A stretch of 64,000 nt of DNA from Azolla caroliniana (Eukaryota; Plantae; Polypodiophyta). The position numbers and the translations under genes were made by a program. The notes under the pieces were generated by a model, which saw only the letters and a program-made list of their open reading frames with translations, searched no databases and was not told the origin of the DNA. Positions 29,915 through 47,499 of this stretch are shown piece after piece. The stretch's first letter is position 1. Every line of letters starts with the position of its first letter. Location of the stretch: contig JBHGNT010000017.1 in NCBI GenBank assembly GCA_043228905.1, positions 17,360,001-17,424,000 on the forward strand, in the 5' to 3' direction.

Positions 29915-32900
29915 TCATACGACACCCTGCTCATGCATAGCCTCAGCAAGTTGTAGAAAAGCTGCAATGTTTGCACCGTGAACTAAAACCCTGTCATTAA
30001 CAAAATTAGAAACAGATACAGGTTTTGTAAAGAAGGCCAATAGAAAATTTCACATACAAATACAATGAAAACTGAGAGAATGTGCATGCTACTGTGAGAC
30101 ATAAGAACTGGATATGTATTAAGGCAGTCCATAATGTAAATAAAAAGAGGAGTAACATATGCTTGCTTACTCTGTATTTGTTCGCAAGATGCCATATTCA
30201 TAACCTGCCTTAACACATTTTTGATAAACCTCCCTCATGAATTCCTGAATGTTCTCGATTGACAAACGGTTACTCTTCAATCCAAAATTCCTTGTGATTA
30301 AAGGAAACGTGTATTACATAACATCACATACCTGTAATCTAGAGTCGAACTCCCCTATCGAGAACTGCATTTGTATCTCATTCAAACTATGTGTTGCCTC
30401 AAGAGCTGAAATGGCCACCTGAATATAGCACAAACAAGAACTAAGAATACAGAGAAGAAAACACTGAAATTTTAAGTGTAGAAACCACATATTCATATAC
30501 GTACACCTCCAGCACTGGCTGCTTTACTTGGTGCAACTAAAACATTTGATTTCCTAAGGACATTGAGAGCTTCTGACGTACATGGCATCACAGAACCTGC
30601 AGTAGAGATTTACAGAGGTTAGCTAGCATAAATGATAGGTTCAGATATGGTTGCAAGCTTAGTTTAATTTGGGTAAATTCAAGTTCACGTGACAGAAAGA
30701 CCATTAATATACCTGCTAATAATGTCATACAGACTTGTCATGATAGCTACCAGCTAATATAGCGACAACAGATAAGAATCCAGCCAAAAATGTGAAGGCA
30801 TTATTTGAACAACTGGAGATTCTCTCTAAGGAAATATGACCCCATCAAAATAGAAGAAATAAATCTCAAAACCGCTGATAATGAACAACACATTGGGGTA
30901 AAAGCCCCAGCTGCCTCTTACTCAGTGCAATATGTTTGGTAATAAAGGTGGCAGCCTACTGGCAACCTTTTCTGTAATGAAGGTGGCCGTTTATTGCCAG
31001 TCTACTCTATATTAAATATGGCAACCTAGTTATCTGTCAACTCATTTTTTGATAAACATTCCAGACCCTGTGAAGAGTAGGAACTTTACCCTAACCTTAT
31101 GTCTCTTTCTCAAAGTTGGCACATCCCCTTTTTTCTCTTTGGTATCCTTCCTGCTTTCAGATTTTCCCTTCTCTTAGGTGTCTCAGTAGCTGCATTTGTA
31201 TCTTCTGTTTTGGTCCACTCTTCGCATTAGGATCTATATATCTATGAGCTTAACATTTGAAACTTGGATAGAATGAAACTTTTGTCTTCCAAAAATTCCC
31301 AACATGGACCACTCCAAGATTGATATACTTCGATGAGACGGAAGCACCTTCGATGCCGAGTGATAATGATCTTTATTTTTCAGTGACAAGGATGACAATG
31401 CCACAGTTGTAATTGTAACTTTGTTCAAGTTCATGGTTGAGAATCCACTTGTGTAGTCACTGATTGACTCGTAAAATGAGGAGTGATGTGGCTAAAGAAA
31501 CGCTGTGATTGTTCTCTTACCTTTCAACAACTTCTCTCTATGTCTCTTGAGTTCTAGCAAGAACAATCATAGTCAGTACAAGGCCAAAACCTTGTTTGAA
31601 TGGGCAGTCGTATCTCCTTATTTCATAAAAAACACCACAGTACACTGTTCTTCCGATTCCAACCCCCAATGGCACAGTCACTATATCCATTCTCAAAGTT
31701 CGTGTGCATATCTGCCTATCTCAATCTCCTATCTGATGCGAAGAGATTCTAAGTTGTCTTATCATACTACAAAGCACATGAGATAGAAGTGTATCCATTT
31801 AAAGTCTGATAATAAATCCATCTTGCGATATGTGTATACAAAGTGCCTACTAGTAGACCATTTTCCTACCAAGAGATTTATGTTTCCTCATTTCCAATTC
31901 TCCAATATCAGCTTGAATCACTCTATTCTTTTCCACTTTGGAGAGCATGAAATAGATATGTATCCATACAAGAAAGCCTAAAATTAAATCTATCCTACGC
32001 CATGTGTAAAAATAGTGTCTAGTAGTGGGCCATTTTCCAACCAAGAGAAGTTGTGCTGCTGATCCTGTGAGAAACGTTGTTAATAGCAGCAGCAGAACAG
32101 TTAGAACAAAATAGACACAGCCAAGCTGTGAGAAGGCTGTTAGACAGCAGTAGCAAAAATGGTTGCAAAGAGTAGAAACAGCCAAAGAGTACAGCTTGTT
32201 TGCAAGTAGCAGCAAAAATAAAAGTCATTACAAAAGAGGCTGGTATAGCCTATTTATACAAAATTGGGGAACATGGGTGAAATGGTTGTTTGGTAGTTAA
32301 GTGACTCTTGTACTACCAAACAAGTACAATAAACTAGGAATAAGAGGGAATATCTTGGAAAAAGTGGAAGAGAGAAGGCATTTAAAGAGTTGCAGATCTA
32401 GAGAGAATAATCTAGGAAGAGAGAGAATGTAGAAGAGAGATAAGAAAGATGAAAGAGAGTGCAGGTCTGGAGCTGTCACCCTCCGACAGATCCATATTCT
32501 TTCACTTTCTAAAATCACGCCATTTATTTCCACTGTAAACATTCTGATGTGGACAATCCAAGCTACATTGGAATGGTGGTGGTAATGTGGTGCTACATAT
32601 TCCATGAAGTTAGAATCATTTTCGGCATACCGACCAACATATCTGTCTCCACTTTCAGCCAGCAGTTTTGATGACTTAGTGCCAATGTTGAGTACCTTTG
32701 CTTAGGTAGGCATTGGATACTTATCACTGATCAGAATAATCCCTCAATCACTATTGGGACTGGTCCTATCTCCAACTAGATTATATCATGGACACTGATG
32801 ATTTGCTCCGTCTCATGCGGGCAATCATTTGGACTGAAGGTTACCCTATCACATCAATGGCGGAAAGAGTCTCATATGCTTTGATATTCACAGTGTAGTC

Positions 32901-47499: not shown

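What the first reader, a model, noticed from the sequence alone, without database searches (positions are those of the whole stretch)
29915..47499. NLS + TTF-type zinc finger fused to a GDH fold lacking its catalytic lysines: candidate nuclear metabolite-sensing pseudoenzyme
Seen in sequence: exon 1 encodes a His8 tract, a basic cluster ([10 protein letters not shown]) and W..EW..TYKW......RIFCSIC..(27)..H..S..H. The GDH exons read [34 protein letters not shown] and GSGKV. Established, from recall: canonical gdhA has [19 protein letters not shown] (Schiff-base Lys), DVPAGDIG, GVFTGK and GSGNV. The W-W-FCxxC...HxxSxxH pattern matches the TTF zinc finger of hAT transposases and of domesticated proteins such as ZNF862 and ZMYM1. 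This family (At1g51720/GDH4-type) is normally annotated simply as NADP-GDH. Inference: the protein cannot perform classical GDH chemistry. It may be a DNA- or chromatin-binding regulator whose oligomeric GDH module senses NADP(H), 2-oxoglutarate or an amino acid, built from a domesticated transposase domain.
Basis: partly seen in the sequence, partly recalled or inferred. Interest (0 to 1): 0.85.

Follow-up and report, generated by a model that had tools for sequence, protein, structure and literature searches.

The report
Transposase finger on a crippled dehydrogenase
The land-plant gene filed as 'NADP-glutamate dehydrogenase' joins a highly conserved transposase-type zinc finger to an enzyme body whose glutamate-binding site is damaged in every plant copy checked, so it is likely a nuclear DNA-binding regulator rather than the chloroplast nitrogen enzyme it is assumed to be.

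Summary
Observation confirmed. A 15-exon minus-strand fern gene (47535-29915) encodes 656 aa; all 14 splice joints appear in public contigs. Exon 1 holds a basic arm and a Pfam PF25431 C2H2 finger, which also heads hAT-like transposases. Exons 2-15 fold as a GdhA-type GDH.

It is the At1g51720/OsGDH4 family, found from liverworts to grasses. Of 206 plant members, 0 keep all 8 substrate-contact residues, against 71 of 71 prokaryotic controls. Most adenosine-side NADP contacts and the dimer interface persist.

Corrections: K116 and D168 are kept; mosses keep K92 and K128 but lose S380 and N242; the His8 tract is incidental. The finger's closest solved folds are RNA-binding U1-type fingers (Z 6.2, weak). 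One paper reports NADPH-GDH activity for recombinant rice OsGDH4 made in E. coli (PMC6776155), which argues against full inactivity unless host GdhA co-purified.

Best reading: a nuclear DNA-binding multimer on a near-dead GDH scaffold that may still bind NADP(H) (0.45). Nothing functional is shown. My paper searches and two scan look-ups found no such description.

The parts
46923..47535 (-). Exon 1 (aa 1-204): disordered acidic N-terminus, basic arm, C2H2 finger, linker
   Evidence: joint to exon 2 in 4 of 4 runs
47371..47394 (-). Conserved acidic short motif (EEIDLExG type, aa 48-55) in the disordered region; candidate partner-binding or activation motif (inferred)
   Evidence: 170 of 206 members match; pLDDT <50 for aa 1-104 of the homologue model
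47290..47313 (-). His8 tract (aa 75-82); incidental
   Evidence: 3 of 206 members have 5 or more His
47185..47214 (-). Basic cluster (aa 108-117); candidate nuclear localisation signal and DNA-binding arm
   Evidence: K111, K112, K116 invariant in 120 of 120; similar basic runs precede the finger in several transposase-like hits
46960..47184 (-). PF25431 (zf-C17orf113) C2H2 zinc finger and following helix (aa 118-192)
   Evidence: Pfam E 4.6e-24; C142, C145, H173, H179 in 120 of 120; model pLDDT 76
45901..46030 (-). Exon 2 (aa 205-247): start of GDH domain I
45613..45814 (-). Exon 3 (aa 248-315): dimer-interface strands; K92-equivalent is Arg294 (45678-45676)
45448..45534 (-). Exon 4 (aa 316-344): K116-equivalent kept (Lys318); catalytic K128-equivalent is Gly330 (45492-45490)
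45289..45348 (-). Exon 5 (aa 345-364)
45043..45129 (-). Exon 6 (aa 365-393): G167-equivalent is Glu369 (45117-45115); D168 kept (Asp370)
44567..44638 (-). Exon 7 (aa 394-417): K197P; R207 and T211 kept
44370..44425 (-). Exon 8 (aa 418-435)
44064..44149 (-). Exon 9 (aa 436-464): Rossmann motif with N242-equivalent as Lys444 (44127-44125); followed by a GC donor
36127..36217 (-). Exon 10 (aa 465-494): D263, S264, K286 equivalents kept
35484..35641 (-). Exon 11 (aa 495-547)
30505..30596 (-). Exon 12 (aa 548-578): N348V, N373S
30332..30418 (-). Exon 13 (aa 579-607): S380 kept as Ser582 in this copy
30171..30244 (-). Exon 14 (aa 608-631)
29915..29990 (-). Exon 15 (aa 632-656) and stop codon

Best explanation
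This gene encodes a transposase-type zinc finger fused to a glutamate-dehydrogenase body with a damaged substrate site, and the protein is likely a nuclear DNA- or chromatin-binding multimer in which that body no longer works as a real enzyme but is predicted to hold several fingers together and may still bind NADP(H). Shown: the spliced fusion, the finger's family, the residue changes and their spread across land plants. Inferred mechanism: (1) an early land plant captured the N-terminal exon (basic arm + finger) of a hAT-like transposase in front of a GdhA-type gene; (2) the basic arm takes the protein into the nucleus and, with the finger, reads a conserved DNA target; (3) the GDH two-fold interface, and probably the hexamer, shows the fingers as an array; (4) selection on catalysis relaxed and different lineages lost different active-site residues; (5) the kept adenosine/2'-phosphate half of the cofactor site may bind NADP(H) or an ADP-ribose-like ligand, and cleft closure may tune DNA binding. 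Step 5 is the weakest (about 0.4 by itself). Glutamate or 2-oxoglutarate sensing is less likely than dinucleotide binding, because the substrate pocket is the part most changed.
For: Finger: PF25431. The same domain heads hAT-like proteins: 7 of 33 scanned hits also matched Dimer_Tnp_hAT, DUF4371 or DUF659 at E<=0.01, one above the curated cut-off (P0185, fern, 736 aa); 34% identity over 79 aa to P0185. The finger is the best-conserved part: 49 of 85 columns invariant over 156 proteins, against 23 of 206 and 8 of 180 for the two GDH domains. N-termini are acidic (median 7 D+E, 3 S+T in the first 40 aa), unlike transit peptides (recalled rule). A pepper orthologue is predicted nucleus/mitochondrion with no chloroplast transit peptide (PMC13259437 table). 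Active site: the 8 substrate contacts named for S. pombe Gdh1 (PMC12301742; mapped to E. coli numbers by offset, inferred) are all present in 71 of 71 prokaryotic GDHs and in 0 of 206 plant members; this copy keeps 5 of 8. K128's equivalent is catalytic (PMC1716157; PMC7326016). N242, which orients the nicotinamide amide in AtGDH1, is Lys in 203 of 206. On a quick tree K128 is lost on at least five branches. Adenosine-side residues G170, G239, G241, D263, S264, K286, N325, E345 are kept in 93-100%. Homodimer of the homologue's GDH domain: score 0.42 against best control 0.00, contacts agree >=97%, pLDDT >=87; the mark was reached by 21 of 30 solved pairs and 0 of 23 single chains (eukaryotes 17 of 29 and 0 of 30). 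Like complexes are solved, so the pass may be from memory. Most interface residues are 87-100% conserved.
Against: Recombinant rice OsGDH4, which has the same K92R, K128A, G167E, N242K changes plus S380G, is reported to show NADPH-dependent amination, with a cited Km for ammonium of 12.4 mM (PMC6776155). K116, D168, R207 and Q113 are kept in this copy and in most members, and Sphagnum and liverwort members keep 7 of 8 contacts. The finger's best structural matches are RNA-binding U1/matrin-type fingers (TUT4 Z 6.2, rmsd 2.2, 65 aligned; yeast pre-A U2 part Z 5.5), and no transposase BED finger appeared among the rows shown. R289 and R292 of the 2'-phosphate site, N373 and (here) N348 are changed, so NADP binding may be lost too. 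No localisation, DNA-binding or ligand data exist in anything I read. The 206-member set is angiosperm-heavy and holds isoforms.
Confidence: 0.45

Rival explanations
1. Same nuclear pseudoenzyme, but the finger binds RNA or a ribonucleoprotein, like U1/matrin-type fingers, and acts in RNA processing rather than on DNA.
For: Eight or more of the top 11 structural matches are RNA-processing proteins or complexes (TUT4, TUT1, spliceosome parts, tRNA dimethylallyltransferase), over ranges consistent with their zinc fingers (finger identity recalled). The H-x5-H spacing is shared with that class (recalled).
Against: Best Z is 6.2, below the level the tool treats as beyond a common arrangement; Foldseek gave no match at E<=0.001. 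Sequence relatives are transposase N-termini, which bind DNA (established for hAT BED fingers; recalled).
Confidence: 0.15
2. The protein is still an enzyme, either a slow GDH or an amino-acid/2-oxo-acid oxidoreductase with a new substrate, tethered to chromatin by the finger to make or consume a metabolite locally.
For: Reported activity of OsGDH4 (PMC6776155). Q113, K116, D168, R207, T211 are largely kept. R92 and E167 co-occur in 181 of 181 cases, which could be a remodelled pocket rather than decay. Mosses keep K92, K116, K128, D168.
Against: The R92/E167 pair is one inherited event on the tree. The K128 position is free to vary (G, A, S, M, V and others) and D168 is Glu in 72 of 206, which looks like relaxed selection. 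The rice assay used one-step Ni-NTA protein from E. coli BL21; the sections I read give no kcat, no inactive-mutant control and no empty-vector activity. Host GdhA is 47% identical over 443 columns and might co-assemble (inferred).
Confidence: 0.2
3. The GDH body is only a structural scaffold and the finger or the acidic motif binds a conserved nuclear protein; no nucleic acid or metabolite is bound.
For: Near-total invariance of aa 139-185 fits one fixed partner of any kind. The nicotinamide side of the cofactor site is altered throughout the family.
Against: The finger module is strongly basic (20 K+R in 85 aa). Rossmann-fold cofactor contacts are kept at 90-100%, though glycine-rich motifs can be kept for folding.
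Confidence: 0.15
4. The annotation is right: an ordinary chloroplast NADP-GDH with a dispensable N-terminal extension.
For: Database names, reviews placing NADP-GDHs in chloroplasts (PMC7326016, PMC9820731), and the rice assay.
Against: The extension is the most conserved part, is acidic then basic rather than transit-peptide-like, and 0 of 206 members have a complete substrate site.
Confidence: 0.05

Closest known systems
AtGDH4 (At1g51720) / OsGDH4 (LOC_Os01g37760), 'putative NADP-GDH' of land plants
   Same: Same family. Rice P0400 has the finger, 389 of 621 identical residues, and contains the peptides encoded by the OsGDH4 qPCR primers of PMC6776155. At1g51720 itself was not fetched; the link is through a 634-aa pepper orthologue table, a Brassicaceae member (P0106) and recall.
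   Different: The papers I saw treat it as a (chloroplast) enzyme; the passages I read mention neither the finger nor the active-site changes.
GdhA-type NADP-GDH (E. coli GdhA, C. glutamicum 5GUD/5IJZ, Plasmodium 3R3J)
   Same: 47% identity to E. coli GdhA; same fold, Z 47, rmsd 2.5 over 436 residues; 74 of 92 residues invariant in prokaryotic GDHs are kept.
   Different: K92R, K128G, A166T, G167E, K197P, N242K, N348V, N373S; about 200 extra N-terminal residues with a zinc finger.
hAT-like transposases with an N-terminal PF25431 finger (fern P0185, limpet P0137) and domesticated C17orf113/ZNF862/ZMYM1-type proteins
   Same: Same finger family with invariant W, C, C, H and a preceding basic run.
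   Different: No transposase core or hAT dimerisation domain here; the oligomerising part is a GDH. ZNF862 and ZMYM1 were not compared (names recalled).
Thermus thermophilus GdhA, a catalytically inactive regulatory GDH subunit
   Same: A GDH fold kept without catalysis for regulation (PMC9570180 passage).
   Different: It regulates an active GdhB in a heterohexamer and has no nucleic-acid-binding domain.
Enzyme-derived transcription regulators: CtBP/ANGUSTIFOLIA, NmrA, Gal80, Rex; B. subtilis RocG/GudB acting on GltC (all recalled, no call)
   Same: A dehydrogenase or Rossmann module linked to gene control, often through NAD(P)(H).
   Different: None that I recall is a GDH fused in one chain to a transposase-derived finger.

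Membership tests
NADP-GDH (EC 1.4.1.4), GdhA type | ELFV dehydrogenase two-domain fold | tested here: met
   (model of homologue P0001)
NADP-GDH (EC 1.4.1.4), GdhA type | Complete substrate/catalytic set K92, Q113, K116, K128, D168, R207, N348, S380 | tested here: not met
   5 of 8 in this copy; 0 of 206 plant members complete; 71 of 71 controls complete
NADP-GDH (EC 1.4.1.4), GdhA type | GxGNxA nicotinamide-binding motif with N242, N348, N373 | tested here: not met
   N242K, N348V, N373S
NADP-GDH (EC 1.4.1.4), GdhA type | 2'-phosphate/adenosine contacts (K136, S264, K286, R289, R292) | tested here: inconclusive
   K136, S264, K286 kept; R289Q and no R292 equivalent
NADP-GDH (EC 1.4.1.4), GdhA type | Measured NADP(H)-dependent glutamate/2-oxoglutarate turnover | not testable with these tools
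   One report for the rice orthologue without the controls needed (PMC6776155)
NADP-GDH (EC 1.4.1.4), GdhA type | Hexamer of dimers | tested here: inconclusive
   Dimer model passes, 0.42 vs 0.00, possibly from memory; trimer and hexamer not tested
Land-plant GDH4/At1g51720 family | PF25431 + PF02812 + PF00208 in one chain of about 600-660 aa, and placement within the clade | tested here: met
PF25431 zf-C17orf113 | Score above Pfam gathering cut-off; C-x2-C...H-x5-H | tested here: met
   84.5 bits vs 29.5
TTF-type zinc finger (SMART ZnF_TTF) | Match to the SMART model | not testable with these tools
   SMART not held; atlas gives only leads at 0.85-0.90 (GTF2IRD2-like, FAM200B-like, C17orf113)
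Zinc finger (any) | Zinc binding by the four ligands | not testable with these tools
   Inferred from invariance
hAT transposase | DDE core and C-terminal dimerisation domain | tested here: not met
   The whole 656-aa protein is accounted for by finger + GDH
U1/matrin-type RNA-binding C2H2 finger | Fold match and RNA binding | tested here: inconclusive
   Best Z 6.2; RNA binding untested
Nuclear transcription/chromatin regulator | Nuclear location and DNA/chromatin occupancy | not testable with these tools
   Only a basic cluster and a published prediction

The most novel reading that the evidence does not exclude
Land plants have no working NADP-GDH. At their origin the gene was turned into a hexameric, transposase-finger DNA-binding regulator whose dead GDH cleft reads nuclear NADP(H) redox state, a pan-land-plant metabolite-sensing transcription factor hidden for decades under an enzyme annotation.
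Probability: 0.2. Interest if true: 0.92.

Novelty: new variant of a known kind. Interest (0 to 1): 0.74.

Why it matters
Reviews state that plant NADP-GDHs sit in chloroplasts with a function 'not fully understood' (PMC7326016), and GDH4 genes are listed as nitrogen-use-efficiency candidates in cereals (PMC5073129, PMC9820731). If the gene is a nuclear pseudoenzyme, that open question becomes directly testable, metabolic models and candidate lists are wrong at this gene, and land plants gain an uncharacterised regulator present from liverworts to crops. It is also a clean case of a transposase finger exon captured by a metabolic gene, with mosses and liverworts keeping intermediate states of the active site.

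Tried and rejected
No whole genome is held for the window, so paralogues in this organism were not counted. A first exon list had off-by-one boundaries and gave a frameshifted product; it was corrected and its window columns were not used. The finger alignment found 0 solved sequences at E<=10, and Foldseek gave no match at E<=0.001; neither shows a new fold. No run on record as RNA was listed, so expression level is not addressed. No algal protein with the finger was named among the listed hits; each lists only 120 rows from a capped candidate set, so absence in algae is not shown. P0155 is a false hit, a glycosyl hydrolase with lectin repeats. Four of 75 prokaryotic extracts were wrong frames (16-22% identity) and were dropped, and 5 of 80 loci gave no extract. 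The careful tree did not finish; the quick tree has SH-aLRT support only and no clade test was run. The His8 tract as a functional element was rejected. The 206-of-206 counts for finger and basic cluster are partly circular, because the set was filtered on finger motifs. Paper searches that found no description of the fusion. Fontaine 2012 and Prakash 2018 were not held, and Zhou 2015b was seen only as cited. Earlier scan findings were unrelated prokaryotic GDH loci or none.
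Full report
Gene structure. The finding is a minus-strand gene of 15 exons from 47535 to 29915. Splicing by coordinates gives a 1971-nt frame, 656 aa, with one terminal stop; 13 introns are GT-AG and intron 9 is GC-AG. 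Contigs of public runs, whose RNA status is a guess by the tool, show 13 of the 14 joints (one joint in 3 of 4 runs, the rest in 4 of 4) and the intron-9 joint in 4 of 4 runs. The exon 1 to exon 2 joint is among them, so the fusion is not a prediction artefact. The closest relatives are fern proteins: Ceratopteris 84% over exon 1, and P0001, whose cluster holds Adiantum and Pteridium members, 568 of 642 identical.

Exon 1. Residues 1-104 are predicted disordered in the homologue model and hold an acidic motif matched in 170 of 206 members. The His8 tract is incidental (3 of 206). Residues 108-192 are a basic arm and a C2H2 finger matching Pfam PF25431 at 84.5 bits. All four ligands are invariant in the 120 listed hits. 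As a check not selected on the finger, a search with the moss GDH domain alone listed 120 proteins: 101 carry PF25431, 8 are partial or N-truncated family members, and 11 are finger-less GDHs that keep K92 and K128. Over 156 full-length proteins, 49 of 85 finger-module columns are invariant, against 23 of 206 and 8 of 180 in the GDH domains.

Origin of the finger. A full HMMER search gave 69 hits. I scanned 33 of them: 32 match PF25431, and 7 also match hAT-associated families at E<=0.01, mostly below the curated cut-off. P0185 from Adiantum nelumboides has the finger at its N-terminus and a hAT dimerisation domain above cut-off at its C-terminus, and aligns to the window's finger at 34% over 79 aa, basic run included. 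The atlas adds weak leads to C17orf113-, GTF2IRD2- and FAM200B-like clusters (0.85-0.90). A transposase origin is therefore well supported; direction and donor were not tested with a tree. The TTF label is recalled and untested. The finger model (pLDDT 76) has no Foldseek match. Its best VIA-align matches are RNA-processing proteins: TUT4 Z 6.2, rmsd 2.2, 65 residues; a yeast pre-A spliceosome chain Z 5.5. These scores are below the tool's caution level but keep RNA binding open.

GDH body. The model of P0001 aligns to C. glutamicum GDH at Z 47, rmsd 2.5 over 436 residues. Against E. coli GdhA the window protein is 47% identical and keeps 74 of 92 positions invariant in 71 prokaryotic GDHs. 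The 18 lost positions include K92R, K128G, A166T, G167E, K197P, N242K, N348V and N373S. K116, D168, R207, T211 and S380 are kept. Roles come from passages read in PMC1716157 (first part of the text), PMC7326016 (passages) and PMC12301742 (passages); mapping their numbers to E. coli is my inference from offsets and motifs. All 8 substrate contacts are present in 71 of 71 controls and 0 of 206 plant members; 192 of 206 keep 5 or fewer. The 206 were filtered from about 370 stored proteins for length and finger motifs, and include isoforms.

Evolution. The fusion occurs in liverworts, mosses, lycophytes, ferns, gymnosperms and angiosperms. Nine proteins keep K92, K116, K128 and D168 together: eight moss-clade proteins and one lycophyte. 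Mosses instead lose S380, A166 and N242; liverworts lose K128 and A166. On a quick tree of 56 rows the plant family is one clade (support 100), and K128 is lost in liverworts, one Physcomitrium paralogue, a lycophyte pair, a gymnosperm-type paralogue and the fern+seed-plant clade. R92 and E167 occur together in 181 of 181 cases, as one inherited event. N242K is nearly universal (203 of 206), so the nicotinamide site probably changed first. The simplest reading is fusion first, then piecemeal loss of catalysis (inferred).

What is kept. Adenosine-side and pyrophosphate-side contacts remain at 84-100%, though R289 and R292 do not. A two-copy model of the homologue's GDH domain scored 0.42 against a best control of 0.00, contacts agreeing >=97%, pLDDT >=87. 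The mark was reached by 21 of 30 solved pairs and 0 of 23 single chains; like complexes are solved, so this may be from memory. Most interface residues are conserved in 87-100% of the family.

Evidence against. PMC6776155 (abstract, passages, sections 17 and 19, supplement hits) used His-tagged OsGDH4 from E. coli BL21 as a control, saw NADPH amination with lower ammonium affinity than a fungal GDH, and cites Km 12.43 mM from Zhou 2015b, which I did not see. The rice protein P0400 contains the peptides of that paper's primers and has K92R, K128A, G167E, N242K and S380G. So an orthologue with the same lesions is reported active. The sections I read give no kcat, mutant or empty-vector activity. 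The host has its own NADP-GdhA, which is known to co-purify (recalled) and might co-assemble through the conserved interface (inferred). Figures were not visible to me. I weigh this as real but weak evidence for residual activity.

Mechanism. I commit to a nuclear DNA/chromatin-binding multimer (0.45): basic arm and finger for import and target reading, GDH body for multivalency, and possibly NADP(H)-type ligand control. Rivals are a chromatin-tethered slow or altered enzyme (0.2), an RNA-binding version (0.15), a pure protein scaffold (0.15) and the annotated chloroplast enzyme (0.05). Localisation, binding and sensing are all untested. The only support for location from print is a predictor table for the pepper orthologue (PMC13259437, passage).

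Novelty. The family is known by annotation, and Pfam already shows the three domains. PMC9820731 (passages) and PMC7326016 place NADP-GDHs in chloroplasts; PMC7285260 (passage) calls At1g51720 putative; PMC5073129 (table passage) lists GDH4 as a nitrogen-use candidate; PMC10385319 and PMC12364357 (passages) added nothing on this family. Ten searches of the open-access library showed no paper describing the finger or the active-site loss; most were seen as listings only, subscription papers are missing, and supplements of interactome or localisation studies were not searched and may bear on this. Inactive regulatory GDHs are known (Thermus GdhA, PMC9570180 passage), as are enzyme-derived regulators (recalled). 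I score it a new variant of a known kind, interest 0.74.

Noticed in passing
window 37058-42341 (+), in intron 9: Full-length Copia LTR retrotransposon, antisense to the gene: LTRs of about 457 nt, 99.1% identical, 5-bp target duplication, primer-binding site and an uninterrupted 1383-codon ORF. A recent insertion in a GC-AG intron that is still spliced correctly in the contigs.
   Followed up: partly
window 42886-43853: About four near-identical tandem copies of a 238-bp unit in intron 9 (98-99% identical).
   Followed up: no
window 30597-35483 (intron 11): 4.9-kb intron made largely of high-copy repeats, partly LTR-like (depth).
   Followed up: no
proteins P0136, P0138, P0139, P0141, P0190, P0192: A second plant family (Psilotum, Taxus and unnamed) with the same finger at 39-45% identity but a short C-terminus weakly like Mug135_C/DUF3294 instead of GDH; possibly another domesticated finger.
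   Followed up: partly
proteins P0005, P0114, P0322, P0332, P0333: A separate paralogue clade (cluster includes Ginkgo) with Glu at the K92 position and Gly167; some keep K128.
   Followed up: partly
protein P0137 (Patella vulgata): hAT-like protein with seven PF25431 fingers in tandem, showing that this finger works in arrays.
   Followed up: no
proteins P0280, P0283, P0285, P0287: Unnamed finger-less GDHs with K92, K128 and N242 intact, 59-62% identical to the moss GDH domain; candidates for the unfused sister group.
   Followed up: no
window 48780-49130: Long simple-repeat tract (hexa- and dinucleotide units) about 1.3 kb upstream of the start codon.
   Followed up: no
window 1100-21000: Neighbouring coding fragments that read like a glycoside hydrolase (about 1150-3400, +), a DEAD-box helicase (about 8500-10100, +) and a cytochrome P450 (about 13500-14800, -); recognised from motifs by recall.
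   Followed up: no
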